64,000 bases of DNA from an uncultured Candidatus Saccharibacteria bacterium (lineage in GTDB: Bacteria > Patescibacteriota > Saccharimonadia > Saccharimonadales > JAGQNJ01): the NCBI GenBank assembly GCA_964491925.1, contig CAZBGZ010000001.1, positions 64,701-128,700 of the forward strand. Reading direction: 5' to 3'. Below the pieces are notes generated by a model that saw nothing but the letters and a program-made list of their open reading frames with translations, was not told the DNA's origin and did no database searches. Shown piece after piece: positions 5,877 to 53,848 of the stretch. The translations under genes were made by a program, and so were the position numbers. How positions within the stretch are numbered: position 1 is the first letter of the stretch; every line of letters starts with the position of its first letter.

Positions 5877-5953
5877 GGGCCAGTAGCTCAGCTGGTTAGA
5901 GCACGGGCCTTTTAAGCCCGGTGTCGAGGGTTCGAGTCCCTCCTGGCCCTCCA
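5877..5953 (+). tRNA. tRNA-Lys (anticodon UUU), CCA encoded
   Basis: Cloverleaf read by eye: acceptor GGGCCAG/CTGGCCC, D arm GCTC..GAGC, anticodon loop CTTTTAA, T arm GAGGG-TTCGAGT-CCCTC, terminal CCA. Confidence 0.9.
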
Positions 5954-5961
5954 AATTAATG

Positions 5962-5984
5962 ACCCATCCTGGTGATGGGTTTTT
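5962..5984 (+). terminator. intrinsic terminator after tRNA-Lys
   Basis: ACCCATC-ctggt-GATGGGT stem-loop followed by a T run. Confidence 0.7.
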
Positions 5985-6041
5985 AATTTTGGCGTCCGGA
6001 TAGATGCGGTTCATCGACTTGTATTTTCTGCAAGAAAATAC

Positions 6042-6172
6042 GGTAGTCGAGGGTTCGGTCGACAAGCTCGCTCACAGAAGCTTGCTTCGAGAACGAGCGC
6101 GGTCGTGCTTTGCCCCTCCTGGCCCTCCAATACGCTTATGTTAAAACAGAGGTAATTTTGCCTCTGTTTTTT
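6042..6172 (+). repeat. degenerate copy of the tRNA-Lys 3' third, interrupted in the T-loop by a ~55 nt structured insert, plus a 43 nt flank repeat
   Basis: GTCGAGGGTTCG (6046-6057) and CCCCTCCTGGCCCTCCA (6113-6129) match tRNA positions 5925-5953. The flank TACGCTTATGTTAAAACAGAGG...CCTCTGTTTT recurs at 7270-7309. Confidence 0.8.
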
Positions 6173-11942: not shown

Positions 11943-12602
11943 TTATAGCAAGGGGGAGCCTTCTTTGGGTGGGGCTGAGGTTTTTGCATCAAACAAGGGT
12001 TTTGCATCAATGACCACGCGGCCGTCAGCTTCGCCTTTTAGTGAACATGTATAGAGTGTCATTTTAGCTTCAGTTGTTTGTTTTTCTATCTCTACCGCAG
12101 TCCGGGCAACAGCGTAGTTTTTCGTTACTTCGTATTCATACCATTTTTTGTTATAAAAAACCTTAATTTTATCACCCGGCTGAACCTCGTTAAGGTTATA
12201 GAAAGGCGATTTTGCCCTTGTACCCTGCGGAGTTACGCCTAAATTAAATCTATGGGCACTAAGAATAAAGTTGCCACCTTTTTCTGGATTACCACGCTCT
12301 GGATATCGCCACCATGCACCTTTTTCTAAACTAGCTGGCGTATTTTCCTCAAAATAAGGGACTTCTAGGTTTAATTTTTCTATCTGTATTCGGTTTCGAA
12401 GATCTTTTGCATCATCAGATGTGTTGTAGTCGATTGGGGAACCAGGTAATTCTTTGACTTTTGGACTAAAAACAAGAACTAGTAGATATACGCCGACCAG
12501 AAACATTATTATAGAGACAACTAGTGCCACTATTTTCGGCCATCTTCGCGTCTTGATTGGCTTCTCGTTTGAAAGGGCTTTAATAGATGGGGCTGGTGAC
12601 AT
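11943..12602 (-). CDS. sortase family transpeptidase (class E-like)
   Basis: N-terminal TM, ILSAHR (catalytic His region) and TLYTCS (TLxTC catalytic Cys). Confidence 0.8.
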   Translation of the reverse strand: MSPAPSIKALSNEKPIKTRRWPKIVALVVSIIMFLVGVYLLVLVFSPKVKELPGSPIDYNTSDDAKDLRNRIQIEKLNLEVPYFEENTPASLEKGAWWRYPERGNPEKGGNFILSAHRFNLGVTPQGTRAKSPFYNLNEVQPGDKIKVFYNKKWYEYEVTKNYAVARTAVEIEKQTTEAKMTLYTCSLKGEADGRVVIDAKPLFDAKTSAPPKEGSPLL

Positions 12603-12644
12603 AGAACTTACATTGTATCAATTAGCCAGTTATTTATTCTAGTG

Positions 12645-13736
12645 CTAGAGACCGGTATTTTTTAATTCTTCGAGTAATTGTTTTTGTTTATGACTTAGTC
12701 TGTGGGGTGTATCTACAATTATTGTAACGATGTGAGAGCCACGGGTTTTAGACCGTATATGTGGAACACCGTGCTCAGACAGTTTGAAGTCAGTCCCACT
12801 CTGTGTACCAGCAGGGACTTTCATGGTTATAGGCCCATCAACAGTATCCACTTCAATTTCTGTGCCAAGTGTTGCTCCTATCAAACCTACATGCTCTTCC
12901 GATAGTATTATGTCGTCTTCGCGGGTAAAGTGCTTGTGGGCTTTTACTCGGACATTCACGTACAAGTCACCTTTTTGCCCCCGCGCAATTGCTTCGCCAC
13001 GCTCTTTCAAACGGATAGTTGCACCGTCATCAATCCCAGCCGGAATTTTCAACTTTACTTGTTGCTTTTGTCTGGTAACACCCTTGCCTTTGCAGACGCT
13101 GCAAACTTTTTCTGGTATTTTCCCAGTGCCCTTACATTCGTTGCAAACATTTGCTTGCTGAATATTGCCAAATACTGTTCGCATCACACGTGTTACCTGT
13201 CCAGAGCCCTGGCAGGTGGGGCAGGTCTTGAGTTCATAACCAGGTTCGACTGTACCGCCCTCGCAATGTTCACATGACGCGTTAAGCTGCATGTTTAAGT
13301 CAATCTCTGTGCCAAAGACTGCTTGTTCAAATGATAGTTCAATTTGGGTTTGGACATCGTTACCGCGACGTTCGCGTTGCCCGCGTGCTTGCTGGTGACC
13401 ACCACCAAAAAAGTCGCCAAATATATCGCCTAGGCCTAGATCACCGAAGTCAAAGTTTATATTTTGTCCTTGCCCGCCATACCCGCCTCCAGCAAACGGA
13501 TTACCATCACTAGCTGCACTAGACCCAACTCCAGCATGACCAAACTGATCATACCTCTGTCGTTTGCTGGGATCTTTTAGTACTTCATACGCTTCGTTAA
13601 TTTCCTTGAACTTTGCCTCGTCACCACCTTTGTCTGGATGATGCTCGACAGCAGCCCTGCGAAAAGCTTTCTTTAGCTCATCTGCGCTAGCATTTTTGCC
13701 TACTCCCAATATCTCGTAATAATCCCTCTTTGCCAT
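12645..13736 (-). CDS. dnaJ: molecular chaperone DnaJ
   Basis: J domain (DYYEILGV...HPDK), G/F-rich region and four CxxCxGxG zinc-finger repeats. Confidence 0.95.
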
Positions 13737-27208: not shown

Positions 27209-27285
27209 GTCGGTGTAGCTCAGTTGGTTAGAGCGCAGGACTCATAAGCCTGAGGTCGTTGGTTCAATTCCAACCACCGACACCA
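27209..27285 (+). tRNA. tRNA with CAU anticodon (elongator Met or Ile2-lysidine), CCA encoded
   Basis: Acceptor GTCGGTG/CACCGAC, D arm GCTC-AGTTGGTTA-GAGC, anticodon loop CTCATAA, T arm GTTGG-TTCAATT-CCAAC, ACCA end. Confidence 0.88.
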
Positions 27286-27458
27286 TTAGATAAGCACTTC
27301 ACCTGAAGTGGTTTTTTTATGTAGACAGATATTTGGAATTGAACCTCGGTGGCAAATAGCCAGTTGGCTGTTTGCGTTTTACCTACTTGCTTGCATGCGC
27401 AATGACTTTAGTCATTTTGTCGCTAGCAGAGGATAAAGGATTCCAACCGCCGACACCA
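27286..27458 (+). repeat. ~155 nt structured non-coding element bounded by an 18 nt copy of the tRNA 3' end
   Basis: Terminator hairpin at 27295-27318. Inverted copy of the tRNA T-arm (TTGGAATTGAACC, 27333-27345). Hairpins AGCCA-gt-TGGCT and AATGAC-ttta-GTCATT. TTCCAACCgCCGACACCA at 27441-27458 matches the tRNA 3' end at 17 of 18 positions. A homologous element lies inverted at 52534-52691. Confidence 0.8.
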
Positions 27459-29311: not shown

Positions 29312-29386
29312 CGCGGGATGGAGCAGCGGCAGCTCGCGTGGCTCATAACCACGAGGTCCCAGGTTCGAGTCCTGGTCCCGCAACCA
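29312..29386 (+). tRNA. initiator tRNA-fMet (CAU), CCA encoded
   Basis: CGCGGGA...TCCCGCA acceptor with the C1xA72 mismatch typical of bacterial initiators, anticodon loop CTCATAA, T arm CCAGG-TTCGAGT-CCTGG. Confidence 0.88.
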
Positions 29387-29453
29387 TAAAAAACGTCTCA
29401 ACATTCGTTGGGGCTTTTTTTATTGCTGTGGCCAAGACTTGGTTCTGGGACGC
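29381..29453 (+). repeat. direct repeat, left copy (tRNA-fMet 3' end plus downstream flank)
   Basis: CAACCATAAAAAACG...TTGGGGCTTTTTTTATTG...GGTTCTGGGACGC recurs at 30591-30663. Confidence 0.8.
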
Positions 29454-29545
29454 ATACTGCTTCAGCAGTATGCAAGTCCCTGGTACGGTCATCAAGCTCG
29501 AGCACAGGAGTTTACTCCGAGCACGAGTGCCGGATGTGCCATTGC

Positions 29546-29561
29546 CCTGGTCCCACAACCA
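29546..29561 (+). repeat. additional copy of the tRNA-fMet 3' end
   Basis: CCTGGTCCCaCAACCA against the tRNA's CCTGGTCCCGCAACCA. Preceded by split T-arm pieces (GGTTCT at 29441, GTCCCTGGT at 29476). Confidence 0.75.
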
Positions 29562-45217: not shown

Positions 45218-45380
45218 TGGTGGCGATAAAGCGAAGAGTTTTGAACCTTTGGATGTTATCGTTGAATGACTGATTTCTAATCCCAATCCTGATTGGAACT
45301 TACAACTGTAAAGGCTGAGAAAGTAGCTACTGAACAGATGTGGCGATACTAGAAAAGAGTAAGATAAAGTGTGTTGAAAC
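45218..45380 (+). repeat. array repeat copy C1 (degenerate: in-frame TGA and a frameshift)
   Basis: Starts TGGTGGCGATAAAGCGAAGAGTTTTGAACCTTTGG, ends GTGGCGATACTAG, plus the tail AAAAGAGTAAGATAAAGTGTGTTGAAAC. Confidence 0.95.
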
Positions 45381-45400
45381 TACTACTGTATGATGTGTGT

Positions 45401-46303
45401 ATGACAATTGAAGACCAACTTACTGAGAAATATGGCTTGCGTTATCCAAAATGCAAGAACCTGCATACTCTAGCTAATGATTCATTTGAAGTATTATGTC
45501 CTGACGGACACTTTGCTCTCAAAGTCTACAATGCAACCGCAAGAAAGCCTCAAGAAATACAGTGGGAAATAGATCTAACCCTTCACCTAACAGAGAATGG
45601 CGCGCCAGTCGCTCCAATTGTTGCTGCTAAGGACGGTAGTCACCTGAAGACGTTCAGTGTTGATGGGCAGGATCGTGTAGTAATTTTGTTCGAGTGGGCT
45701 GCAGGCGAGAAACCTAAACCAGAGCTCAGTACTTATACTCTAATTGGTGAGGCAGCTGCTCGTATACATGATGCGGCTGACTCCTTCGCGTCAGATTTGC
45801 CCCGTGAAGAATTTGACGCTTACGAACTGTTTGACGACCAACTGAAACGAATGAAAATACCACTTGAAGAAAGTGGTCAGTGGCAACGCGTCTTTGACCT
45901 AACCGAACGAATGAGGAAGATTGTTGCTAATCCTAGTCTCGACTATGGGATTATTCATAACGACCTAACGCTAGATAACATACACCTCGATAGCGGTAAG
46001 CTGGTTGTTTTTGATTTCGATAGTGCAGCAAAGTCTTGGCGAGCAGCCGAGCCGTGGGGAGTACTCAAGGCTTCTGAAGATAGGTTCAAGGCTTGGCTTG
46101 AAGGATACCGCTCAGTTCGTGAGTTTAGTAAAGAAGACGAACAAGCCGTCGCTGCTTTTGTGATCATCGAAGATATTAGGAACGTCACATGGAAACTGGG
46201 CTGTGCTCGCTCTTCACGTGGCAAGCCCCTCATAAAAACAAAGGATATACCTGCTGTTGTTGACGAGTGGCTAGAGTGGGAAGCACAAAAGGTCAGGAAC
46301 TAG
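45401..46303 (+). CDS. aminoglycoside/choline kinase-like phosphotransferase (APH family fold)
   Basis: IIHNDLTLDNIHL (HxDxxxxN catalytic loop) and VVFDFDSA (DFD metal site). Start trimmed to MTIEDQL. Confidence 0.7.
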   Translation: MTIEDQLTEKYGLRYPKCKNLHTLANDSFEVLCPDGHFALKVYNATARKPQEIQWEIDLTLHLTENGAPVAPIVAAKDGSHLKTFSVDGQDRVVILFEWAAGEKPKPELSTYTLIGEAAARIHDAADSFASDLPREEFDAYELFDDQLKRMKIPLEESGQWQRVFDLTERMRKIVANPSLDYGIIHNDLTLDNIHLDSGKLVVFDFDSAAKSWRAAEPWGVLKASEDRFKAWLEGYRSVREFSKEDEQAVAAFVIIEDIRNVTWKLGCARSSRGKPLIKTKDIPAVVDEWLEWEAQKVRN

Positions 46304-46781
46304 TTTTTCCAAATAGCTGCACCATAATTTCTTCTCGATCATCTTCAATCGCCAAGTAGATTCCTTCGTTTTGTAGACGCGTTTGCATAGACTCCTCAAT
46401 CTCTAGTGAGTCATTAAATACATCTAAAATCGTATGTTCAGGGTCATCTCGAAGAACTCTGTTTATCGACAGTTTGTTACAGCTGCAACAAAGATGAATG
46501 AACATGATTTCACCTTGTTTAGAAATGCCTTCGTGCTTGAAAGTAAGTCCAATTGGCTTCATGCCACCTAAACAAGTAGCTGTGCGATCACCTGGCTTCC
46601 CATCAATATGTTTAGACCAAAAACACATATTGCAGTGGTTCCGGTTCTTTGAACCCATAAGTTCGTTTATGACTACCCATTGCTTACAATGAGTGCACTT
46701 GAATCCACCTGCTTTGTTTTCTCTAAGTCGTTCTTGTTTTCTAAACTTTTCATAGTCAAATAGCTCACGTTTATAGTTCAC
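46293..46781 (-). CDS. zinc-ribbon protein with RNHCP-like motif
   Basis: CTHC...NRNHCNMC...CLGG...CCSC cysteine pattern. The RNHC motif recalls the RNHCP domain family. GTG start. Confidence 0.5.
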   Translation of the reverse strand: MNYKRELFDYEKFRKQERLRENKAGGFKCTHCKQWVVINELMGSKNRNHCNMCFWSKHIDGKPGDRTATCLGGMKPIGLTFKHEGISKQGEIMFIHLCCSCNKLSINRVLRDDPEHTILDVFNDSLEIEESMQTRLQNEGIYLAIEDDREEIMVQLFGKTSS

Positions 46782-46801
46782 GCAGAAAAATCCTATCCCA
46801 C

Positions 46802-46828
46802 AAAAAAAACCAGCTAGCTTAGCTGGTT
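46802..46828 (-). terminator. terminator-like hairpin inside the 5' leader of the RNHCP-like gene (possible attenuator)
   Basis: On the minus strand, AACCAGCTA-agc-TAGCTGGTT followed by T8, ending about 20 nt before the GTG start. Confidence 0.55.
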
Positions 46829-46986
46829 ACTGGATAGTCGGAAACTATTTTACTTTGTGATTACATTTACAGATTTTTGGCACCAGCCAAGCAGAACCCC
46901 ATCTGGGGCGTGACTTCTGCATATGTGGTGCTACTTCTGAAATGTAACATAAGCAATATAATACTAACTTTAGTACGGATTGTCAA

Positions 46987-47122
46987 TGGTGGCGGTAAAG
47001 CGAAGACTTTTGAACCTTTGGCTGAAGTTGTAGAGTGGCTGTTTGAGAACAAGGAAATGAGTTGCGCTAGTTGGTTAGCAGAGGCTTCATTGATCGATTC
47101 GATACAAGGGTGGCAATACTAG
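46987..47122 (+). repeat. array repeat copy C2 (frame intact, divergent 3' half)
   Basis: TGGTGGCGGTAAAGCGAAGACTTTTGAACCTTTGG... The frame reads GGGKAKTFEPLAEVVEWLFENK...GWQY*. Confidence 0.95.
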
Positions 47123-47641
47123 AGGTCCGTTCCCAAAGTTTAAGGGTGCAAGCATATAGGGCGACGGAACTTCTTTTTTTCGCTCAACTAGATCCACTTC
47201 TTCTACGTGCGCAATCGAATCCGTACCTACAGATCCCAAAACAAGCGCTTCATAAGGAAGAAGCGGCACAGTTACCACTTGATCGGCGCGTACTTTCAGC
47301 GTAGCTAATCTACCCCCTTCTCTCTGAGCATATCTTAAGGCTATGTCTCGTTCAGGTGTAGCAGAGACAAAGGGAGTGTACTCGCCCGATATAGTTGGAT
47401 CACTCGAGGCAGCATGGGTTGCTATAAGATTGATTAACATGTAATCCCTATCGCTGGCGACCTCTTTTATGACTTCATATAAGTTTTTTGGACGGTCGTG
47501 TAGAAGAGCTGCTGAAAGCATACCTCTCTCTGGGTCAACTTGATGTGGGGCAAAACCTCGATATAGCGTAACGACTTCGTCAGGAGACTGACCAAGTCTT
47601 ATTTCTGGAGATAAATTATGCCAATCAAAGTGATAAGACAT
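47087..47641 (-). CDS. hypothetical protein with ADP-ribosyltransferase-like R-S-E motif spacing
   Basis: 184 aa with TLYRG ... PFVSAT ... PYEALVLG in the order and approximate spacing of R-S-E ART toxins. Weak, motif-only. Its 3' end overlaps the tail of C2. Confidence 0.5.
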   Translation of the reverse strand: MSYHFDWHNLSPEIRLGQSPDEVVTLYRGFAPHQVDPERGMLSAALLHDRPKNLYEVIKEVASDRDYMLINLIATHAASSDPTISGEYTPFVSATPERDIALRYAQREGGRLATLKVRADQVVTVPLLPYEALVLGSVGTDSIAHVEEVDLVERKKEVPSPYMLAPLNFGNGPLVLPPLYRIDQ

Positions 47642-47678
47642 ATTTATATATTACCATAAGCTTAATAATAAGTCAATG

Positions 47679-47841
47679 TGGTGGCGATAAAGCGAAGACT
47701 TTTGAACCTTTAGAGTCTGTTGTGGAGTGGCTGATTGCGAACCCTAATCCTGCCTGGTCTTTCCAACTCAAAGAAACTGCGAAAGTTAAAATCGAACAGA
47801 GTTGGCGGTACTAGAAAAGAGTAAGATAAAGTGTGTTGAAC
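47679..47841 (+). repeat. array repeat copy C3 (frame intact)
   Basis: The frame reads GGDKAKTFEPLESVVEWLIANPNPAWSFQLKETAKVKIEQSWRY*, with the tail AAAAGAGTAAGATAAAGTGTGTTGAAC abutting the next gene's stop. Confidence 0.95.
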
Positions 47842-48387
47842 CTAGAGGACTGCGATAGCGGCTAAAAGGATACTTACATGTGACAAGAATATAAACGGTA
47901 ATTCGAAGTATAAGAAATGATCCCAATACTTGGCAGCAAACAAGCAGAGTATGCTCATAAGCCCAAAAATAAACCACTCGAGCAAGGCATATGTACCCGT
48001 CAGGGTTGTTGCAAATACGAAAGCTAGTGCCAACATCCCCATTCCCATTCCGTATGCTAGATAGTCATGTACTTTTCCAAGCCTACCTTTTCTGGCTGGG
48101 ATCATAGCAAGCAAGAGTTCGCAGCCGATGACTACCGTGTAAAACATTATCAGTAATGGTCCTGTACCGAGCCGAGGAATCACCAAAAAATACATCATCA
48201 CCGAAATCAGACTCCCGCATGTCCAAAGGATGATTCTAAACTCCCTTAGAGTCTTGCTATCTTTAGCCGCTAACTCACTGAGTGTACGGCGTTTTTCGAG
48301 CCTGTGTTCTCTGACTGCAAAAACTGTAACGCTAACTGAAGATAGGATGATTCCGAGCAAACCACAAATAAAAGCAAAGGCTGGCAT
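47842..48387 (-). CDS. hypothetical integral membrane protein
   Basis: 181 aa with 5-6 TM helices. Confidence 0.55.
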   Translation of the reverse strand: MPAFAFICGLLGIILSSVSVTVFAVREHRLEKRRTLSELAAKDSKTLREFRIILWTCGSLISVMMYFLVIPRLGTGPLLIMFYTVVIGCELLLAMIPARKGRLGKVHDYLAYGMGMGMLALAFVFATTLTGTYALLEWFIFGLMSILCLFAAKYWDHFLYFELPFIFLSHVSILLAAIAVL

Positions 48388-48422
48388 AATGATGATTATA
48401 GACTAAAAAGTTCTAACGTATT

Positions 48423-48586
48423 TGGTGGCGATAAAGCGAAGACTTTTGAACCTTTGAGTTCTGTCGTGGAATGGTTGATTGAAAACCCCTTACCTGACGG
48501 GGACTTGCAGATAAGACAGGCTGAAAAAGTCCAAGTTGAACAAGGATGGAGATACTAGAAAAAGAGTAAGGTAAAGAGCGTTGAAC
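48423..48586 (+). repeat. array repeat copy C4 (frame intact)
   Basis: The frame reads GGDKAKTFEPLSSVVEWLIENPLPDGDLQIRQAEKVQVEQGWRY*, plus the tail. Confidence 0.95.
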
Positions 48587-49075
48587 CTATTCCGCAAGGC
48601 TATGTACAGTAACCTTGTCGAATAGCTTCAGTTCGGCTTGAGTTAGTTTCTGAAAGACCTTGGCATATTCTCGGATTTGGTCTTCGCTAATAATCCCTAC
48701 TCCATGACCACCTTTTTTGTTACGTTTCTCTAGTCGTCTTATTAACTCCTCCAAGGGAATATCGAAGTAGTTTAGCTCAGTTATTGCTCCGACCTCTTTG
48801 GCTTTTCGACGAATAGTATCGCGCTCTTCCTTTGTCCATAACCCATCTTCAAATAGCAATGATTGACCCTCGGCTAGTGTTTGCCAAGCAGTCTCCCACA
48901 AGGCACGCCAGCTTTTCTCATGTAAGGCTTCATTTTGCAGGTCGAGCCCGCGATCAGCCATCCAGTCATCAGTACAAAACCGCAGTACACCTCGCTCTTT
49001 GGCAAGCTGTTTACCTAATGTTGTTTTGCCTGATCCTGGTAGTCCACAGAATAGTATTAAAGTTAGCTTATTCAT
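48587..49075 (-). CDS. P-loop kinase (AAA_33-like ATP-binding protein)
   Basis: Walker A GLPGSGKTT, 162 aa. Its start overlaps the stop of the upstream ABC-F gene (ATGA). Confidence 0.65.
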   Translation of the reverse strand: MNKLTLILFCGLPGSGKTTLGKQLAKERGVLRFCTDDWMADRGLDLQNEALHEKSWRALWETAWQTLAEGQSLLFEDGLWTKEERDTIRRKAKEVGAITELNYFDIPLEELIRRLEKRNKKGGHGVGIISEDQIREYAKVFQKLTQAELKLFDKVTVHSLAE

Positions 49076-50541
49076 GACTGCTCTAATTCTATAACTTTTG
49101 TAATACGCAGTGTATCAACAAAGTAGTTGTCGTGTGAGGCAACCAGTAATGCTCCTTCGTACTCCTGCAGCGCCACTTCTATTTGTTCACGGGTAGCAAT
49201 ATCGAGATGGTTTGTAGGTTCATCGAGAATTAAGAGTTGGTGAGCACCAAGTAGTAGTTTGGCAAAACCGAGTTTCGCCTGTTGGCCACGAGATAGTTCG
49301 CTCACCTTTTTCTTTAAGTCTTGTTTTGTCAGCCCTAAACTTCGTGTTTCCCTAAAAAGAGCAGTCGGATCAGATAGATAGTCCTGTAGATTCTCCAATG
49401 CAGTACGATTATGGTCTAAGCCGTCGACATCCTGCGAGAAATAGCCAATGCTGACGTCTGTCCCAATAGTAACCTGGCCTTTGGTGGGCTGTTCTATTCC
49501 TGCAGCAATCTTCAATAATGTGGTTTTTCCACTCCCGTTGTTACCAGCAATACGCAACCGTTCATTGCCACGGAGCTCAAAGCTAATACCATCTAACACT
49601 AATGCGGAGAAACTTTTATGGATGTCACTTAAACGAAGGAGAAGCTTTTGGCTAGACACCTCACCTGGCAAGACTACTTTGTAGCTCCGAAGCGTTTCGG
49701 GACGTTCAATATCTTCCAGTTGCTCCAGACGCTTCTCCAAAGCACGAGCTTGCTGACCAAACTTGTTTGTCACTCGATTCCTGAAGAAGTCCCGCTGATA
49801 TTTATCACCGTCCGCACGCTTAATGTGTTTATGCGTGTGTTGTCCTTGCTCACGTTGCTGATCAATAGCTTTGTTCAGCCTTTGACGCTCCTCGATATTC
49901 TTCTCATACCGTTCTAGCTCGCTACGGCGCTCTATGTCCCTCCGTTCAAGGTAGAAGTCGTAGTTACCGCCATACTGTCTCAGTTTACCGTCTTTAAGCT
50001 CGACCACTTTCGTAGCAACCTGGTTGATGAAAGCTCGATCATGACTAACCAGCAGCACCGCACCGCGATACGACTTAATGAAGTTTCTCAGCCAGTGTAG
50101 TCCGCTTGCATCCAGATTATTAGTTGGCTCATCTAAAAGCAGGGTAGTTGGTTCAGGTTTGCTAGACAATACAATAGCAAGTGCTAAACGTGTTCGTTGC
50201 CCGCCACTGAGGGACTTTGTCGACGTGTCTAGAACTACGTTTAAACCGACCCGAGAAAGGGCGTAGTTAACCTGCCACTCTTCAGCAGCCGAGCTAAAAC
50301 TTTCGTGGACTGTTCTACCCAAAGTCGCTTCCTGTGGCACATAGCCAATAACTTCCCCGTTGAGATCTAAGTGGCCACTATCTGGCTTGGTTGCGCCTAA
50401 CAGTACTTGAAGCAAGGTTGTTTTTCCAGCTCCGTTACCACCAATAAGAGCAACTACCTCACCAGTGTTTACTGACAGGCTAATGTCGTCCAAAACAGTC
50501 TTGCCTAAGAAAGACTTGTGTATATGACGAAATGTGAACAT
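49072..50541 (-). CDS. ABC-F ATPase, likely antibiotic-resistance (ARE) type ribosomal protection protein
   Basis: Two ABC cassettes (GGNGAGKTT/LSGGQRTR/LLLDEPTN and GNNGSGKTT/LSRGQQAK/LILDEPTN) with no TM domain. They are joined by a charged linker. Length is about 489 aa, and a leader peptide plus terminator lie upstream. Confidence 0.75.
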   Translation of the reverse strand: MFTFRHIHKSFLGKTVLDDISLSVNTGEVVALIGGNGAGKTTLLQVLLGATKPDSGHLDLNGEVIGYVPQEATLGRTVHESFSSAAEEWQVNYALSRVGLNVVLDTSTKSLSGGQRTRLALAIVLSSKPEPTTLLLDEPTNNLDASGLHWLRNFIKSYRGAVLLVSHDRAFINQVATKVVELKDGKLRQYGGNYDFYLERRDIERRSELERYEKNIEERQRLNKAIDQQREQGQHTHKHIKRADGDKYQRDFFRNRVTNKFGQQARALEKRLEQLEDIERPETLRSYKVVLPGEVSSQKLLLRLSDIHKSFSALVLDGISFELRGNERLRIAGNNGSGKTTLLKIAAGIEQPTKGQVTIGTDVSIGYFSQDVDGLDHNRTALENLQDYLSDPTALFRETRSLGLTKQDLKKKVSELSRGQQAKLGFAKLLLGAHQLLILDEPTNHLDIATREQIEVALQEYEGALLVASHDNYFVDTLRITKVIELEQS

Positions 50542-50554
50542 ATTTTCTCCTAAC

Positions 50555-50601
50555 AAAAAACCGAGCATGGCGGGTGGCGAAAGCGTCGCACTTATGCTCG
50601 G
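50555..50601 (-). terminator. leader terminator (attenuator) upstream of the ABC-F gene
   Basis: On the minus strand, CCGAGCAT-(25 nt)-ATGCTCGG followed by T6, ending 13 nt before the ABC-F start codon. Confidence 0.7.
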
Positions 50602-50665
50602 TTAATATCTAAGTTAAGAAATGAAATAATCAATAGCAAAGCTACAGCTCTCGGTGCGACACTTA

Positions 50666-50689
50666 TTAGCGATTGATTATATCTATCAT
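50666..50689 (-). promoter_or_regulatory. 7-codon leader peptide ORF (MIDIINR*) with Shine-Dalgarno AAGGAG
   Basis: ATGATAGATATAATCAATCGCTAA on the minus strand, with AAGGAG (50700-50705) about 10 nt upstream. It sits between the promoter and the terminator. Confidence 0.6.
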
Positions 50690-50717
50690 GTTCTATAAAC
50701 TCCTTTAAGTTTTCTGC

Positions 50718-50746
50718 ATATTACCATAACCGTATAGTTTCGTCAA
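50718..50746 (-). promoter_or_regulatory. sigma70-type promoter abutting repeat C5
   Basis: On the minus strand, TTGACG (50746-50741), a 17 nt spacer, then TAATAT (50723-50718). The -35 box starts immediately after the repeat core CCACCA. Confidence 0.65.
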
Positions 50747-50909
50747 TGGTGGCGATAAAGCGAAGAGTTTTGAACCTTTGTTTAATGTCGTAGAGTGGTT
50801 GATAACCAACCCTGATCCTGCCTGGTCAAAGCAACTCAAAGAAGCAAGCTCAGTGCAATTTGAACAGTGTTGGCGGTGCTAGAAAAGAGTAAGATAAAGG
50901 GCGTTGAAC
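50747..50909 (+). repeat. array repeat copy C5 (frame intact)
   Basis: The frame reads GGDKAKSFEPLFNVVEWLITNPDPAWSKQLKEASSVQFEQCWRC*, plus the tail. Confidence 0.95.
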
Positions 50910-51104
50910 CTATTTGATTGTAGCATTTGGTGTAGGTTGAACTTCTTGTAAACTAGACTGGTCTGGGAATAGAGGTAGTTGACGACCTTCTTCAAGACCT
51001 AGAAGCATTCTACGGGTTCTATTAAAAAGTTCATTGAGACCTTCTTGTGTTGCACCCTCCTCAAAGTGTGTTCCTGCTTCTGCTGAGTCGATAAATATGG
51101 GCAT
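50910..51104 (-). CDS. hypothetical small protein
   Basis: 64 aa, with AGGAG 6 nt upstream of the ATG. No motif recognised. Confidence 0.45.
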   Translation of the reverse strand: MPIFIDSAEAGTHFEEGATQEGLNELFNRTRRMLLGLEEGRQLPLFPDQSSLQEVQPTPNATIK

Positions 51105-51153
51105 TGTAAACTCCTTTTATACTAGGATTTTAACATATCCTCAAGACATTGTC

Positions 51154-51289
51154 TGGTGGCGATAAAGCGAAGAGTTTTGAACCTTTGGCGGGTGTTGTTG
51201 AATGGTTAATTTCTAACCCTATACTTGGCTGAAACTTGCAACTGAAAGAAGTTAAAGATGTTCAAATAAAACAGACTTGGCGCTACTAG
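51154..51289 (+). repeat. array repeat copy C6 (one in-frame TGA)
   Basis: The frame reads GGDKAKSFEPLAGVVEWLISNPILG*NLQLKEVKDVQIKQTWRY*. Confidence 0.95.
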
Positions 51290-51302
51290 ATAGGCCTAAA
51301 CC

Positions 51303-51878
51303 TTAATTGAACTCTGATGGAATATTGAACTGCTTGGTCATTTCTGGACTTGTCATTTGCCCACGGTAGAGGACTAGCCAAGTTTCATTAGCTTTCTTTA
51401 GATAGTATGCCGAGCCGCTGCCATCGGTTGTTCCGTCTTTGCTACATACTGCATTCACGTAGGCAAAGTTTTTATCAGATGAGTATAGAACTTGCTTCTG
51501 ACTTGCACCTGCTGTTCCGACTTTGAGAACTAAAGCCTGTTTAGTATCTGGATCAACAGTAGCATTACAGTACGACTTCACGGCGGCTAGTATTTGCTCG
51601 TCATTTGTCGGGGTTTTTGGGGCAGCAGCTGGCGTTTCTGAAACAGGCTGGGTAGTAGATTGTTGGAGCTTTGTGATTTCTGCCTTGCTAGCATCGAGTT
51701 GGCTTTGAAGGTCTTGGTTTTTACTATTTTGCCAATAGTATAGGCCTCCGAATGCAGCAAGTATCAAAAGAGCTATCCCGAAAGCTAGAATTATCTTCTT
51801 GCCCTTACGATTTGTCTGTGGCGGTTGACTTAAGTTGGTGTTTTGATCAGGTTGAGTTATGTTTTGTTGATTATCCAT
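51303..51878 (-). CDS. hypothetical membrane-anchored extracytoplasmic protein
   Basis: 191 aa with a Q/N-rich N-terminus, one TM helix, a short coiled coil and a C-terminal globular part. Confidence 0.55.
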   Translation of the reverse strand: MDNQQNITQPDQNTNLSQPPQTNRKGKKIILAFGIALLILAAFGGLYYWQNSKNQDLQSQLDASKAEITKLQQSTTQPVSETPAAAPKTPTNDEQILAAVKSYCNATVDPDTKQALVLKVGTAGASQKQVLYSSDKNFAYVNAVCSKDGTTDGSGSAYYLKKANETWLVLYRGQMTSPEMTKQFNIPSEFN

Positions 51879-51924
51879 ATTAGTTATACATTAGCATTTT
51901 ATGGATAAGACGAATAGTACTTTA

Positions 51925-52083
51925 TGTGGCGATAAAGCGAAGACTTTTGAACCTTTAGCTTGTGCCGTTGATTGGCTGATTGCTAACTCCCGCCCTAATT
52001 GTCTTCTATGGCTTGGGTATCAGACAACAACATCAAAAATAGCTGTCAATAATATTATGGCACCTAAGAACGAGGGTTCTTAA
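51925..52083 (+). repeat. array repeat copy C7 (core lacks one triplet; 3' half diverged)
   Basis: TGTGGCGATAAAGCGAAGACTTTTGAACCTTTAGC... The frame reads CGDKAKTFEPLACAVDWLIANS, then unrelated sequence up to a TAA. Confidence 0.9.
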
Positions 52084-52090
52084 TCCGGAC

Positions 52091-52483
52091 TTAGAAAGTG
52101 AAGCATTTTAAAAAGTGCATAGCGAATATAACCAGAAAAATCGATATCTCTACACCAATAACATAAAGAGATGAATAGACTATATTAACCCAAAAACTTT
52201 TTTTCTTAGAGTGATTTGTAAAAAAGAATCCCCCAACCAATATTGTAGAGATACCAATTATCATAGCTTGGTCTAATTTGTAGTAGTAGCTGTAGTCGTA
52301 GGTAACATAAGACCCATTCCTTAAAAACTCTAGTGGCCCCACGCTACATTTTTCAAAATAAATGAGCGTTAAAGGTATGAGTATACCAAAGGCTAATGAC
52401 AATTTTCTTATTAAGCCCATTCGACTCATTATACATAAGCCAATTGTTTTATAAATATATCCTACTATCAAAAAATCCTTCAT
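52091..52483 (-). CDS. hypothetical integral membrane protein
   Basis: ORF trimmed to MKDFLIVGYIYK because the N-terminal extension in the track reads through a tRNA 3'-end fragment. 3-4 TM helices. Confidence 0.5.
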   Translation of the reverse strand: MKDFLIVGYIYKTIGLCIMSRMGLIRKLSLAFGILIPLTLIYFEKCSVGPLEFLRNGSYVTYDYSYYYKLDQAMIIGISTILVGGFFFTNHSKKKSFWVNIVYSSLYVIGVEISIFLVIFAMHFLKCFTF

Positions 52484-52512
52484 AGCTCTAAACAAAGTAG
52501 AGCGACGAAGGA

Positions 52513-52533
52513 TGGTGGGGATGGTAGGATTTG
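52513..52533 (-). repeat. exact 21 nt copy of the tRNA(CAU) 3' end (T-loop to CCA)
   Basis: TGGTGGGGATGGTAGGATTTG is identical to 53773-53793. Confidence 0.95.
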
Positions 52534-52691
52534 CTTTATCTTCCATTAGCGACAAAATGACTAAAGTCATTGCGCATATGGGCAAGTACTTAAAACTCAA
52601 ACAGCCGTACTTGGCTGTTTTCACCTTTCGGTTCAAATCCACAATAACTCACTTCATAATAAAAACACCCAAAAAAGGAGTGATTTTATTA
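52534..52691 (-). repeat. second copy of the ~155 nt tRNA-flank element (inverted relative to 27286-27440)
   Basis: A 31 nt perfect match, 52547-52577 being the reverse complement of 27395-27425 (ATGCGCAATGACTTTAGTCATTTTGTCGCTA). The order of terminator hairpin, inverted T-arm piece and AGCC...GGCT hairpin is collinear with the first copy. Confidence 0.85.
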
Positions 52692-52827
52692 TGGTGGGGA
52701 TTAAGTGAAGACTTTTGAACCTTTCGTTTCTGTCGTTGATTGGCTGATTGCCAACCCCAATCCTGAATGGGGCTTACAGTTAGAAAATGCTTTGAAGGTC
52801 TATATTGACCAGAGTTGGCGGTACTAG
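52692..52827 (+). repeat. array repeat copy C8 (hybrid: exact tRNA acceptor core TGGTGGGGAT; in-frame TAA at codon 4)
   Basis: TGGTGGGGATTAAGTGAAGACTTTTGAACCTTTCG... The frame reads GGD*VKTFEPFVSVVDWLIANPNPEWGLQLENALKVYIDQSWRY*. Confidence 0.95.
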
Positions 52828-53432
52828 CTATTGGATTCTAGGCGATCAAGCTCTTTTTCGATAAGATTAACTGCATGCTCCCAGTCATCGGCACGCCATT
52901 CAATTGAATAGTTATGGCCTGTTTTGTTGTAGGGCTGGGGAATAAGAACCGCGGCCAACCCGTGCTTTGCAGCACTCTCGCAGTACTTTACTGCATCGTC
53001 TACCAGTACTTTTCCTCCAAGTTCCTTTGCAATTTCGCCTTTTTCTCTGTGCATGTCACTAGATGGTTGAGTCGTAAAGTAGACTTCCGATATTAAATCA
53101 CCGAACTGTTCTTCGATGACCCTCTTTGTAGACTCATGAAACATATCATAATTGCGAGATGTTAGAGCTACTATACGTGCTCTCTTTGATAAGCGTTCAA
53201 GTGCTTTCTTTACACCGCTAACCTGACGATATTGTTCTGTTGCGTGTTGGAACTTATGAAACTGGTCTTCTCCGTTGACGATAAACTTTGACTTATCATG
53301 TTCAGCATTAAAATTGAAGATGTCGGAGGCATCATAATTAGCTCCGTGTGTTTGGTTGTAGGCTTTTACTGCATCGACGGGTGTTTCAAATAGAACTCCG
53401 TCAATATCAACCACGACAACTGATTTCTTCAT
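52824..53432 (-). CDS. HAD-superfamily 5'(3')-deoxyribonucleotidase-like hydrolase
   Basis: VVVVDIDGVL (DxDxV/T motif I), ALTSR (motif II) and a VLVDD region. Start trimmed to MKKSVVVV. Confidence 0.65.
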   Translation of the reverse strand: MKKSVVVVDIDGVLFETPVDAVKAYNQTHGANYDASDIFNFNAEHDKSKFIVNGEDQFHKFQHATEQYRQVSGVKKALERLSKRARIVALTSRNYDMFHESTKRVIEEQFGDLISEVYFTTQPSSDMHREKGEIAKELGGKVLVDDAVKYCESAAKHGLAAVLIPQPYNKTGHNYSIEWRADDWEHAVNLIEKELDRLESNS

Positions 53433-53471
53433 AGACTCATCATACCAAAAATGCATCAACAGAGGTATTTA

Positions 53472-53492
53472 TGGTGGGGATGGTAGGATTTG
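53472..53492 (-). repeat. exact 21 nt copy of the tRNA(CAU) 3' end
   Basis: TGGTGGGGATGGTAGGATTTG is identical to 53773-53793 and diverges inside the T-loop. Confidence 0.95.
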
Positions 53493-53772
53493 GTCACATT
53501 CTGCTACCCCGAAACTTCGTGGTATGCAACAAGTTGCATCCAGAAGATTTCCTTGCGGACAGCCACTGGCTATTCTCCCAAAAGTTTCGCATTGCGAACT
53601 TTTCGGCATGCCTCGCCTCGGGCAATAATTTGCGCCGAGGCCCCGGCCTTGCAAAATGCCATTCTAGGCATTTCTCACCTCCGACTTGTTGGGCCCTTCG
53701 ACCTTGCTCAGGGTCATTCGACTAGAAATAGAATCGCCCATGGTTTACCATGAGCGAACGAAGTGAGTCGAA
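53493..53772 (-). other. 280 nt G+C-rich, hairpin-dense non-coding insert between the tRNA and its 3'-end copy
   Basis: Several strong hairpins (TGCAAC-aa-GTTGCA, CCTCGG-N-CCGAGG, AATGCC-attcta-GGCATT, AAAAGTTTCGC-att-GCGAACTTTT). Only short overlapping ORFs with no coding signature. Confidence 0.6.
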
Positions 53773-53848
53773 TGGTGGGGATGGTAGGATTTGAACCTAC
53801 GACCAATCAGTTATGAGCCGACTGCTCTAACCCCTGAGCTACATCCCC
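53773..53848 (-). tRNA. tRNA with CAU anticodon (elongator Met or Ile2-lysidine), CCA encoded; anchor of the cassette array
   Basis: On the minus strand: GGGGATG-TA-GCTC-AGGGGTTA-GAGC-A-GTCGG-CTCATAA-CTGAT-TGGTC-GTAGG-TTCAAAT-CCTAC-CATCCCC-A-CCA. Confidence 0.88.

What the first reader, a model, noticed from the sequence alone, without database searches (positions are those of the whole stretch)
52513..52701. Hybrid junction inside the array: exact tRNA 3'-end copy, a tRNA-flank element, then repeat C8 carrying the tRNA's own acceptor sequence
Reading the minus strand, repeat C8 ends in ...ATCCCCACCA, the exact acceptor plus CCA of the anchor tRNA. The other copies end ...ATCGCCACCA. After C8 come a structured element of about 158 nt and a perfect 21-nt tRNA 3' end (52533-52513).

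This is the only place where the two repeat families of the array, tRNA-derived and C-type, are physically fused. That is what recombination between the tRNA site and a C-type site within the shared TGGTGG-GAT core would produce. It also shows that the 183-aa ORF in the track (52091-52642) is artificially extended through the tRNA fragment, translated as ANPTIPTIL.
Basis: seen in the sequence. Interest (0 to 1): 0.55.

Follow-up and report, generated by a model that had tools for sequence, protein, structure and literature searches.

The report
Serine-recombinase cassette junction at tRNA-Met
The "hybrid junction" is real: it marks where a one-gene cassette was spliced into the 3' end of a tRNA-Met gene in a Saccharibacteria genome, and the array's repeats turn out to be attachment-site arms of a large serine recombinase that carry a spare tail of that enzyme's own gene.

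Summary
**Observation: confirmed.**
- C8 (52692-52857) ends ATCCCCACCA on the minus strand, which is the last 10 nt of the anchor tRNA-Met.
- It is followed by a 158-nt structured element and an exact 21/22-nt tRNA 3' copy.

**What the parts are**
- The C-type repeats are not integron attC sites. They are the P arms (phage-type half-sites) of attP sites of tRNA-targeting large-serine-recombinase (LSR) elements of Saccharibacteria.
- Each repeat carries a start-less 44-codon ORF under purifying selection. In relatives that still hold the LSR gene, the LSR reading frame crosses the TGGTGG core in that same frame.
- A T-loop-like motif lies 5 bp further from the core in the repeats than in the tRNA. 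This is the known attP/attB offset.
- The 158-nt element belongs to a family found 3' of all four tRNA genes in the window.

**Best model:** every insertion occurred at the tRNA 3' end, and cassette 8 landed between the tRNA and an earlier e158 insertion.

**The G/C base**
- The tRNA-type base recurs at the tRNA-proximal repeat in 3 of 3 comparable arrays and in 0 of 10 distal repeats.
- However, it lies just outside the inferred crossover dinucleotide, so it is not yet explained.

**Open points:** no recombinase gene is in the window, and how LSR-less cassettes stack is inferred.

**Novelty:** new variant of a known kind.

The parts
53773..53848 (-). Anchor tRNA-Met (CAT). Its last ~25 nt act as the attB-type (B) arm. 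Read as reverse complement on the + strand it is TGGTGGGGATGGTAGGATTTGAACC.
   Evidence: ARAGORN; Rfam tRNA 72.4 bits; half-site table.
53493..53772 (-). e280: a tRNA 3'-flank element. It begins with a terminator hairpin (53757-53734). It is the newest insertion in the stack.
   Evidence: Its core is 97% identical to L007 11606-11783, against ~85% identity for the genome backbone.
53471..53492 (-). frag1: an exact 22-nt copy of the tRNA 3' end. It is the left junction of cassette 8.
   Evidence: family D7.
52824..53459 (-). Cargo gene of cassette 8 (NT5C / HAD-type 5'-nucleotidase).
   Evidence: PF06941, E = 2e-9.
52692..52857 (+). Repeat C8, an attP-type (P) arm. The core TGGTGGGGAT is at 52692-52701. 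The T-loop-like motif TTTGAACC sits at positions 23-30. The remnant of the 44-codon tail ORF (52693-52827) has TAA at codon 4.
52534..52691 (-). e158: a tRNA 3'-flank element, with a terminator hairpin (52682-52666) followed by a structured module. It is the former downstream flank (B') of the tRNA site.
   Evidence: Homologue at 27286-27440.
52512..52533 (-). frag2: an exact 22-nt copy of the tRNA 3' end that closes e158.
52091..52482 (-). Cargo gene of cassette 7 (membrane protein). The annotated ORF up to 52642 is over-extended through frag2 and e158.
51924..52017 (+). Repeat C7. Its core is ATGTGGCGAT and the arm is truncated after ~23 codons.
51154..51319 (+). Repeat C6 (P arm, one in-frame stop). 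A promoter-like site abuts its core on the minus strand.
50747..50912 (+). Repeat C5 (intact tail ORF). The minus-strand promoter TTGACG-17-TAATAT starts at 50746.
48423..48589 (+). Repeat C4 (intact tail ORF).
47679..47844 (+). Repeat C3 (intact tail ORF). The minus-strand promoter TTGACT-17-TAATAT starts at 47676.
46987..47122 (+). Repeat C2 (core TGGTGGCGGT, divergent second half). The minus-strand promoter TTGACA-17-TATTAT starts at 46986.
45218..45382 (+). Repeat C1, the most distal and most decayed copy (stops and a frameshift). It marks the end of the array, next to the LPXTG-protein gene.
27286..27458 (+). Comparison copy: the e155 flank element plus a 17/19-nt copy of the 3' end of tRNA-Met 27209-27285.

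Best explanation
The region 45218-53848 is a stack of insertions at the 3' end of one tRNA-Met gene in a Candidatus Saccharibacteria genome.

**What the repeats are.** The C-type repeats are the phage-type (P) arms of attP sites used by a family of large serine recombinases (LSRs) that integrate at tRNA 3' ends.
- In the parent elements the LSR gene runs up to, and across, the crossover core.
- In the excised circle the enzyme therefore ends in the 44 residues encoded by the P arm (GGDKAKTFEPL...WRY).
- In the integrated state it ends a few codons into the antisense of the tRNA (predicted GGDGRI* here).
- This explains why each repeat holds a start-less but selected ORF that begins exactly at TGGTGG.

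**How the sites are read.**
- The same enzyme reads the tRNA (B arm) and the repeat (P arm). Both carry a T-loop-like motif, 5 bp further out in the P arm.
- Exchange occurs inside TGGTGG, probably at the GG at positions 5-6, which corresponds to C71-C72 of the tRNA.
- The incoming DNA resupplies ACCA.

**The eight units in this window.** They have no recombinase gene. Each is a P arm plus one or two cargo genes, often with their own promoter abutting the core.

**The junction in the finding.** It is the distal (attR-type) junction of cassette 8: C8 arm, then core, then e158, which was the tRNA's downstream flank at the time.

**Inferred order of events, oldest first:**
1. cassettes 1 to 7
2. 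e158, whose insertion displaced tRNA fragment 52512-52533
3. cassette 8
4. e280, whose insertion displaced fragment 53471-53492

**Shown:** the nature of the repeats, the frame relation to the LSR, the 5-bp offset, and a precise LSR insertion at a tRNA end in a relative.

**Inferred:** the order of events, the exact crossover dinucleotide, action of the recombinase in trans, and the mechanism behind e158.
For: **1. The repeat ORF is real coding sequence without a start.**
- dN/dS is 0.35 in one + strand frame, against 0.54-1.6 in the other five. There are 2 stops in 16 x 44 codons, against 9-77 in the other frames.
- The 44 codons are open in 15 of 19 copies, yet 12 of 19 have no in-frame start.

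**2. No longer protein ends in this peptide.** This holds for 5.8 billion proteins and 1.84 billion representatives. Only short junction ORFs match.

**3. Homologous tails sit at the left end of LSR elements.**
- L015 reads: core + tail, cargo, 140-aa HTH protein, LSR.
- L014 has the same layout with an internally deleted LSR whose last codons run in frame into the core at a tRNA-Leu.
- In L022 the full 609-aa LSR reads ...KISTG|RGDRI* into an antisense tRNA-Pro, in the same frame (T GGT ...) as the repeat ORFs.
- The L015 and L022 LSRs are homologous (E = 1e-68).

**4. The link holds for the window's own repeat family.**
- L010 has a window-type repeat, cargo, then the start of an LSR gene on the same strand.
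- L011 has an LSR whose ORF crosses a TGGTGG core into a P-type arm, followed by a window-type repeat and tRNA-Met.

**5. The 5-bp offset.** The motif YTNGAACC lies at positions 18-25 in tRNA arms and 23-30 in repeat arms in the window, L014/L015, L008 and L018 families (L016 by eye). This is the zinc-ribbon-domain motif shift described for LSR attB versus attP (PMC3783163).

**6. A filled versus empty site.** L008 and L005 are 99.97% identical in the flanks. A 3.7-kb element carrying a 532-aa LSR (Resolvase + Recombinase + Zn_ribbon_recom) sits exactly between tRNA-fMet and its flank element, with exchange at a GC dinucleotide. About 300 relatives of that LSR end in tRNA-antisense tails, and a few in an alternative tail.

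**7. The layout recurs.** Repeats on one strand with tRNA-Met at the end on the other are seen in L003, L004, L005, L007, L011 and the divergent L016.

**8. Left-arm variation.** Variants at positions 1-4 of the core (C7 ATGT, L007 TCGT, L012 TGAT) occur only at internal junctions. This is expected if those bases belong to the exchangeable left arm.

**9. Precision of the C8 join.** e158 is complete from its first base after CCA.
Against: - No recombinase gene lies in the 64-kb window (tblastn with three LSRs; motif scan; Pfam on ten candidates).
- The left flanks of the cores are not conserved. Canonical LSR sites need two half-sites, and canonical attL sites are not substrates for a second integration. 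Tandem stacking is therefore not explained by textbook LSR behaviour.
- The tRNA-type base of C8 lies outside the inferred crossover and is present on both products.
- One relative (L001) has the array on the 5' side of the tRNA in the opposite relative orientation.
- No excised circle or empty site for cassette 8 was seen.
Confidence: 0.72

Rival explanations
1. The array is an integron-like system. A tyrosine recombinase of the IntI type would insert promoterless cassettes through folded single-stranded attC-like repeats, with the tRNA end serving as attI.
For: The array consists of mostly single-gene units, each followed by a ~165-nt repeat with one sharp boundary. New units appear to enter next to a fixed site.
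Against: - The repeats have no inverted repeats and no conserved fold. The consensus energy is -2.3 kcal/mol.
- They show coding-type conservation.
- Cassettes carry their own promoters.
- No tyrosine recombinase was found in the window or beside the arrays in the loci examined. Relatives carry serine recombinases instead.
Confidence: 0.04
2. The junction and the array arose by homologous recombination. Natural transformation and RecA-dependent exchange between the 165-nt repeats and between the 22-nt tRNA copies would be responsible, with no dedicated recombinase acting here. C8's tRNA-like base would then be a chance mutation.
For: - Saccharibacteria are naturally competent (own knowledge).
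- The repeats are long enough for homologous exchange.
- C8 carries two other private substitutions near the core.
- No recombinase gene is in the window.
Against: - Homologous exchange does not create boundaries that are sharp to the base at TGGTGG in ~31 copies.
- It does not place a complete flank element directly after CCA.
- It does not explain the frame continuity with LSR genes.
- The tRNA-type base recurs at tRNA-proximal repeats in three arrays (p = 0.0035).
- Homologous exchange may well reshuffle units once they are in place.
Confidence: 0.1
3. The units are not mobile cassettes. They would be decay products of complete LSR elements that integrated one after another and each lost its recombinase module by deletion. 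C8|e158 would then be only the outer end of one decayed element.
For: - L014 shows an element with an internal LSR deletion.
- The HTH-140 gene of these elements is often truncated.
- C1, C2 and C7 are decayed.
Against: - Every unit ends exactly at the core on its tRNA-proximal side. None keeps any remnant of the LSR 3' end, and promoters abut the core. Random deletions would not do that eight times.
- A canonical LSR cannot integrate again at an occupied site.
Confidence: 0.12
4. This rival concerns the 158-nt element only. It would be a functional structured RNA gene linked to tRNA genes, with an acceptor-like closing helix and a free NCCA end, rather than a miniature integrative element left by a tyrosine-integrase-type insertion.
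For: - Folds are very stable (z from -2.8 to -6.5).
- The closing helix pairs an internal segment with the tRNA-like 3' end and follows the local tRNA sequence.
- Homologous modules at tRNA-Lys and tRNA-fMet keep hairpins with different sequences.
- The e280 core is 97% identical between two genomes whose backbones are ~85% identical.
Against: - No Rfam family matches.
- Each module follows a terminator, and no promoter was identified.
- Presence and absence vary between relatives.
- The duplicated tRNA segment starts in or at the T-loop, as with displaced fragments of tRNA-integrating islands (PMC4383910, listed).
- Two modules are stacked at one tRNA.
Confidence: 0.3

Closest known systems
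Large serine integrase attP/attB sites (Listeria A118/LI integrase, phiC31, Bxb1)
   Same: - The recombinase has Resolvase, Recombinase and zinc-ribbon domains.
- Identity between the partner sites is very short, around a central dinucleotide.
- The outer binding motif sits 5 bp further from the centre in attP than in attB (PMC3783163).
   Different: - The targets are the CCA ends of tRNA genes.
- Only one arm of each site is conserved.
- The recombinase ORF itself crosses the crossover point, so its C-terminus changes with integration state.
- Sites are reused to build arrays.
Staphylococcal cassette chromosome (SCC/SCCmec) composite islands (own knowledge)
   Same: - Serine recombinases (CcrAB) insert elements at the 3' end of one conserved gene.
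- Tandem composites include recombinase-less units bounded by repeated attachment sequences that can be moved in trans.
- Cargo is often resistance genes.
   Different: - The target there is rlmH, not a tRNA.
- SCC units are kilobases to tens of kilobases, whereas these are 0.4-2.5 kb, mostly with one gene.
- SCC repeats are ~15-20 bp, not 165-nt arms holding a spare recombinase tail.
- There is no homology to ccr context genes.
Integrons
   Same: - An ordered array of small cassettes, each with a repeat at the 3' side of the cargo.
- Entry next to a fixed site.
- Cargo has an accessory or resistance flavour (APH, ABC-F, kinase).
   Different: - No IntI and no folded attC.
- Cassettes have their own promoters.
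- The associated recombinase family is serine, not tyrosine.
Recombinase or target genes that span the attachment site: SSV1-type integrases split by integration; phage 21/e14 carrying a substitute 3' end of icd (own knowledge)
   Same: A coding sequence crosses the crossover point, so the element carries an alternative in-frame 3' end that evolves under coding constraint.
   Different: - Those are tyrosine recombinase systems.
- Here the swapped piece is the recombinase's own C-terminal tail, and the alternative partner is the antisense of a tRNA.
tRNA-anchored island accretion (CIME/ICE accretion, Prochlorococcus tycheposons, Islander-type islands)
   Same: Repeated insertions at one tRNA gene, displaced tRNA 3' fragments marking the ends (frag1, frag2), and units without their own integrase.
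   Different: Those use tyrosine integrases and long tRNA-identical repeats. That description fits only the e158/e280 elements here, not the C-type cassettes.

Membership tests
Large serine recombinase (LSR) attP/attB system | An LSR gene (Resolvase + Recombinase + zinc-ribbon domains) is associated with the repeat family. | tested here: met
   - L010: window-type repeat, cargo, then the LSR start.
- L011: the LSR ORF runs into a core next to a window-type repeat.
- L015, L022 and L008 carry LSRs confirmed by Pfam domains.
Large serine recombinase (LSR) attP/attB system | A recombinase gene is present at this locus, making it an autonomous element. | tested here: not met
   No LSR, HTH-140 or tyrosine recombinase signal anywhere in the 64-kb window. 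The only hit is the antisense of a tRNA.
Large serine recombinase (LSR) attP/attB system | The outer (zinc-ribbon-domain) motif lies 5 bp further from the centre in attP than in attB. | tested here: met
   YTNGAACC lies at positions 18-25 in tRNA arms and 23-30 in repeat arms in four to five families. The rule is taken from PMC3783163.
Large serine recombinase (LSR) attP/attB system | Exchange occurs at a 2-bp central dinucleotide, and only a few bases are shared between the partners. | tested here: inconclusive
   - Shown for the related L008/L005 pair, where the dinucleotide is GC.
- For the window family the shared stretch is TGGTGG (10 nt for C8).
- The crossover is confined to positions 1-6 by comparing the arms, but the dinucleotide itself is not mapped.
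Large serine recombinase (LSR) attP/attB system | Each site has two recognisable half-sites in inverted orientation. | tested here: not met
   The left flanks of the cores are unrelated apart from TGGT and, in some, a promoter -35 box.
Large serine recombinase (LSR) attP/attB system | Catalysis of recombination between the tRNA site and the repeat site. | not testable with these tools
   This needs an in vitro or heterologous assay.
Integron | An IntI-type tyrosine recombinase with an adjacent attI and Pc promoter. | tested here: not met
   None was found in the window or the related loci examined. The genes next to the array are FMN reductase, HxlR, Dus, and an LPXTG-protein gene on the distal side.
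Integron | attC sites that are imperfect inverted repeats folding as single strands. | tested here: not met
   There are no inverted repeats. The consensus fold of 16 copies is -2.3 kcal/mol with almost no covariation.
tRNA-integrating island of the tyrosine-integrase type (for e158 and e280) | The tRNA gene is regenerated, and a displaced 3' fragment starting in the T-loop or anticodon loop marks the far end. | tested here: met
   Copies of 16-22 nt, starting in or at the end of the T-loop, are seen at five tRNAs. The concept is taken from PMC4383910.
tRNA-integrating island of the tyrosine-integrase type (for e158 and e280) | An integrase gene lies inside the element. | tested here: not met
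   The elements are 155-330 nt with no conserved ORF. They are not remnants of an LSR 3' end either.
Any described RNA family (for e158) | A match to an Rfam covariance model. | tested here: not met
   Only tRNA hits were found.

The most novel reading that the evidence does not exclude
Saccharibacteria would possess an integron-like gene-capture platform run by a large serine recombinase.
- A site is defined by one specific arm only: the tRNA arm behaves as attB-like and the repeat arm as attP-like.
- Each insertion therefore regenerates a usable tRNA site, and every repeat stays a usable partner.
- One forward reaction could then insert, excise and reorder single-gene cassettes in trans without a directionality factor.
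- The tRNA-type base at the proximal repeat would be a footprint of repeated cycling of the newest cassette.
Probability: 0.25. Interest if true: 0.8.

Novelty: new variant of a known kind. Interest (0 to 1): 0.55.

Why it matters
**Gene acquisition in ultra-small bacteria.** Saccharibacteria and other ultra-small episymbiotic bacteria have tiny genomes and few recognised mobile elements, so how they gain accessory genes is poorly understood. This locus shows a compact route:
- Cargo units of one or two genes, 0.4-2.5 kb, stacked at a tRNA-Met.
- Cargo here includes an APH-type phosphotransferase, an ABC-F ATPase, a zeta-like kinase and a nucleotidase.
- The attachment arms belong to a serine recombinase family that is widespread in the phylum.

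**Genome annotation.** It explains a class of conserved, start-less mini-ORFs, and recombinases with tRNA-antisense C-termini, that annotation pipelines mis-call.

**Recombinase engineering.** If the one-arm site definition holds, these enzymes would interest recombinase engineers. They would offer natural tRNA landing pads, reusable sites, and a dual-use hairpin that both terminates the tRNA transcript and encodes the enzyme's C-terminus.

**For the finding itself.** The junction is an expected product of this system rather than an oddity.

Tried and rejected
1. **A host gene whose 3' end the repeats would replace (phage 21/icd model).** No full-length protein with this C-terminus exists in either protein collection. 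The idea was replaced by the recombinase-tail model.
2. **A small independent protein encoded by each repeat.** Most copies lack any start codon.
3. **Coding on the cassette strand.** The best minus-strand frame gives dN/dS 0.54 and 9 stops, against 0.35 and 2 for the + strand frame.
4. **Integron attC or a structured RNA in the repeats.** No inverted repeats and no consensus fold.
5. **Rfam families for e158, e280 and e155.** None matched.
6. **e-elements as decayed LSR 3' ends.**
   - A tblastn hit proved to be driven by the tRNA antisense.
   - A profile of 118 LSR C-termini finds nothing in any e-element, while the positive control scores 1.6e-40.
7. **A joint alignment of the two e-element subfamilies** was uninformative.
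8. **G-type cores as one young lineage.** The arms do not cluster together.
9. **Cassette 8 cargo as a homologue of the cargo in the LSR-bearing L010 element.** It is not.
10. **Viral contig scans** with the tail profile and with the L015 LSR found nothing.
11. **Seven literature searches** found no description of such arrays in Saccharibacteria or Patescibacteria.
12. **A crossover at positions 6-7, as in the L008 family.** This was rejected for the window family because the arms differ at position 7 in five loci.
Full report
**1. The observation**

On the minus strand the anchor tRNA-Met (53848-53773) ends ...GGTTCAAATCCTACCATCCCCACCA. Exact 22-nt copies of its 3' end lie at 53492-53471 and 52533-52512 (family D7).

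Eight ~165-nt C-type repeats start on the + strand at 45218, 46987, 47679, 48423, 50747, 51154, 51924 and 52692.
- C8 alone starts TGGTGGGGAT, the reverse complement of the tRNA's last 10 nt.
- The others start TGGTGGCGAT, with variants CGGT in C2 and ATGT.. in C7.

Between C8 and the next tRNA copy lie 158 nt that fold strongly (z = -4.4). They are 79% identical to the stretch between another tRNA-Met (27209-27285) and a copy of that tRNA's own 3' end.

The 183-aa ORF 52091-52642 reads through this non-coding material. The 27-kb homologue has stops in the matching frame.

**2. What the C repeats are**

Read on the + strand, each repeat starts exactly at the core with a 44-codon frame, GGDKAKTFEPLxxVVEWLIxNPxPxWxxQLKEAxxVxxEQSWRY*, and its differences are synonymous in type.
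- Across 16 ungapped copies from six loci this frame has dN/dS 0.35 and 2 stops. The other five frames have 0.54-1.6 and 9-77 stops.
- The 44 codons are open in 15 of 19 copies, but 12 of 19 have no in-frame start.
- A profile search of 5.8 billion proteins, and an exhaustive search of 1.84 billion representatives, returned only short junction ORFs. No longer protein has this C-terminus.
- The repeats have no inverted repeats and no conserved fold.

They are therefore neither attC-like sites nor RNA genes, nor fragments of a host gene.

**3. The link to a serine recombinase**

*More distant relatives of the tail peptide.* These relatives were found.
- L015 reads: core + tail, cargo, a 140-aa HTH protein, then a large serine recombinase on the same strand.
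- L014 has the same layout next to a tRNA-Leu. Its recombinase is internally deleted, and the remaining last codons run in frame into the core.
- In L022 the complete 609-aa recombinase ends ...KISTG|RGDRI*, five codons into an antisense tRNA-Pro. It does so in the frame T GGT ... used by all the repeat ORFs.
- The L015 and L022 enzymes are homologous (E = 1e-68).

*The window's own repeat family.*
- L010 carries a window-type repeat, three cargo genes, and then the start of such a recombinase.
- L011 carries the recombinase reading across a TGGTGG core into a P-type arm, followed by a window-type repeat and tRNA-Met.

*Conclusion.* The repeat ORF is thus the alternative C-terminal tail of the recombinase in the excised (attP) state. 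For the window's tRNA the integrated-state tail would be GGDGRI*.

**4. A second, better-sampled recombinase family in the same bacteria**

- L008 and L005 are 99.97% identical except for a 3.7-kb insertion in L008. It sits exactly between tRNA-fMet and its flank element.
- The insertion carries a 532-aa recombinase with Resolvase, Recombinase and zinc-ribbon domains. Exchange is at a GC dinucleotide two bases inside the acceptor stem.
- 295 homologues were found. Almost all of the 120 listed end in ...KSFLVAGxGxEPxTxWL*, which is tRNA antisense. A few end in a different conserved tail, as expected for the excised state.

**5. Site architecture**

- Counting from the T of TGG, a T-loop-like motif (YTNGAACC) lies at 18-25 in every tRNA arm and at 23-30 in the repeat arms of the window, L014/L015, L008, L016 and L018 families.
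- Rutherford et al. 2013 showed that the zinc-ribbon-domain motif of serine integrases is shifted 5 bp towards the centre in attB relative to attP (PMC3783163).
- This explains why the repeat looks like a stretched tRNA 3' end.
- The tRNA and repeat arms differ at position 7 in L003, L004, L005, L014 and L016. Variants at positions 1-4 occur only at internal junctions. The exchange point therefore lies within TGGTGG.
- I infer the GG at positions 5-6, one base from the position mapped in the L008 family. The reading frame also differs by one base between the two families.

**6. The 158-nt element**

- All four tRNA genes in the window, and one in L005, are followed by the same arrangement: a terminator hairpin, a ~120-nt highly structured module, and a 16-22-nt copy of that tRNA's own 3' end starting in or at the T-loop.
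- There are two sequence subfamilies. One is at tRNA-Lys and tRNA-fMet. The other is at the two elongator tRNA-Met genes.
- L007 has a longer version at the anchor tRNA, and the orthologous tRNA in L005 has none.
- The modules match no Rfam family and are not remnants of the recombinase 3' end.
- A regenerated tRNA plus a displaced fragment is the signature of tyrosine-integrase islands (PMC4383910). I therefore read them as miniature, integrase-less elements of that kind.
- A functional RNA with an acceptor-like end is not excluded.

**7. The junction explained**

If every insertion occurred at the real tRNA end, the order from distal to proximal is the order in time:
1. cassettes 1-7
2. e158, which displaced fragment 52512-52533
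3. cassette 8
4. e280, which displaced fragment 53471-53492

This reproduces the observed order exactly. L007 shows the same logic, and L008 shows a recombinase element inserted between a tRNA and its flank element.

C8|e158 is then the outer junction of cassette 8: P arm, core, and the tRNA's downstream flank at the time. e158 is complete from its first base after CCA.

**8. The G/C base**

- Among about 31 repeats, the tRNA-type base at position 7 occurs in C8, L007:10914 and L011:2645. Each of these is the tRNA-proximal repeat of an array whose tRNA ends ATCCCCACCA.
- It also occurs in L010:887, on an element that still holds its recombinase.
- All ten distal repeats of the three comparable arrays have the other base (Fisher p = 0.0035).
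- The four arms do not cluster together, so the association is probably not descent.
- Position 7 nevertheless lies outside the inferred crossover, and both products of the cassette-8 event carry the tRNA base. In L003, L004, L005 and L016 the proximal repeat keeps its own base.
I leave it unexplained.

**9. What remains inferred**

- No recombinase gene is in the window.
- The units have unrelated left flanks, four of them with a sigma-70-type promoter whose -35 box abuts the core.
- Canonical serine integrases need two half-sites and do not reuse an occupied site.
- Either these enzymes define a site by one arm only, which would give an integron-like platform, or the units are products of repeated precise deletions.
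- L001 has the array 5' of the tRNA in the opposite relative orientation, and no model here accounts for it.

**10. Verdict**

- The finding is real and its core reading, recombination between the tRNA site and a C-type site, is right.
- The system behind it is a serine-recombinase variant of tRNA-anchored cassette accretion. In function it is closest to SCC composite islands and to integrons.
- Seven literature searches found no description of it in these bacteria.

Noticed in passing
window 5877-6129, 27209-27458, 29312-29561, 52512-53848; L005 6784-7026: Every tRNA gene in the window (Lys, two elongator Met, initiator Met) is followed by a terminator, a ~120-nt strongly structured module and a near-copy of its own last 16-22 nt. 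There are two sequence subfamilies. The closing helix pairs an internal segment with the tRNA-like 3' end.
   Followed up: partly
L008 337-4027 versus L005 6951-6958: A polymorphic 3.7-kb insertion carries a large serine recombinase plus two cargo genes, exactly at the 3' end of tRNA-fMet. The flanks are 99.97% identical, exchange is at a GC dinucleotide, and the discriminator base changes from A to T.
   Followed up: yes
proteins P0022-P0141: In a family of 295 Saccharibacteria/Patescibacteria serine recombinases, almost all of the 120 listed have their last ~13 residues (VAGxGxEPxTxWL) encoded by the antisense of the target tRNA. The conserved KKDLPEPEKSF just before that is encoded by a hairpin that reads as the tRNA's terminator on the other strand.
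   Followed up: partly
L007 11898-12506; also L002 ~3502-3779, L003 ~12404-12667, L011 ~3596-3866: The anchor tRNA-Met is interrupted at the anticodon loop in several relatives. In L007 the insert is a group I intron (Rfam 66 bits, above gathering) containing an HNH-type ORF, and the exons are 100% identical to the window's intron-less gene.
   Followed up: partly
L001 7849-10837: Here the array lies between the FMN-reductase gene and the promoter of tRNA-Met, on the 5' side of the tRNA, with the repeats on the same strand as the tRNA. Its first unit starts TGGTGGGGAT followed by a second arm type (ATGGAACC at positions 23-30), which also follows the recombinase gene in L011 (~1310).
   Followed up: partly
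window 47812-47844 and the same part of most repeats: Beyond the stop of the tail ORF the repeats keep ~33 conserved nt (AAAAGAGTAAGATAAAGAGCGTTGAACCTA) holding a second T-loop-like motif. The stop codon TAG of the convergent cargo gene falls at its end in many cassettes. A partial direct copy of the core (TGGCGRTA) sits at the tail ORF's end.
   Followed up: no
window 45371-50568: Cargo includes an APH-family phosphotransferase, an RNHCP-domain protein, an ABC-F ATPase next to an AAA_33/zeta-like kinase, and several small membrane or secreted proteins. This content could relate to antibiotic tolerance.
   Followed up: no
window 53508-53685 versus L007 11606-11783: The core of the e280 element is 97% identical between two genomes whose flanking genes are about 85% identical, while the two ends of the element differ. 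This suggests either recent exchange or strong constraint.
   Followed up: no
L014 8001-8423, L015 2727-3149, L021, L022; proteins P0142-P0162: A 140-aa HTH protein (weak HTH_23/HTH_7 matches) always precedes this recombinase family and is often truncated in databases. It is a candidate regulator or directionality factor. One truncation point is a repeat insertion (P0007).
   Followed up: partly
L016 4728-8764: A divergent lineage (tail peptide ~41-43% identical) has the same design: four repeats on one strand and tRNA-Met at the end on the other. Here it lies next to the DivIC gene, and the cargo includes a HATPase_c_2/DUF4325 pair.
   Followed up: partly
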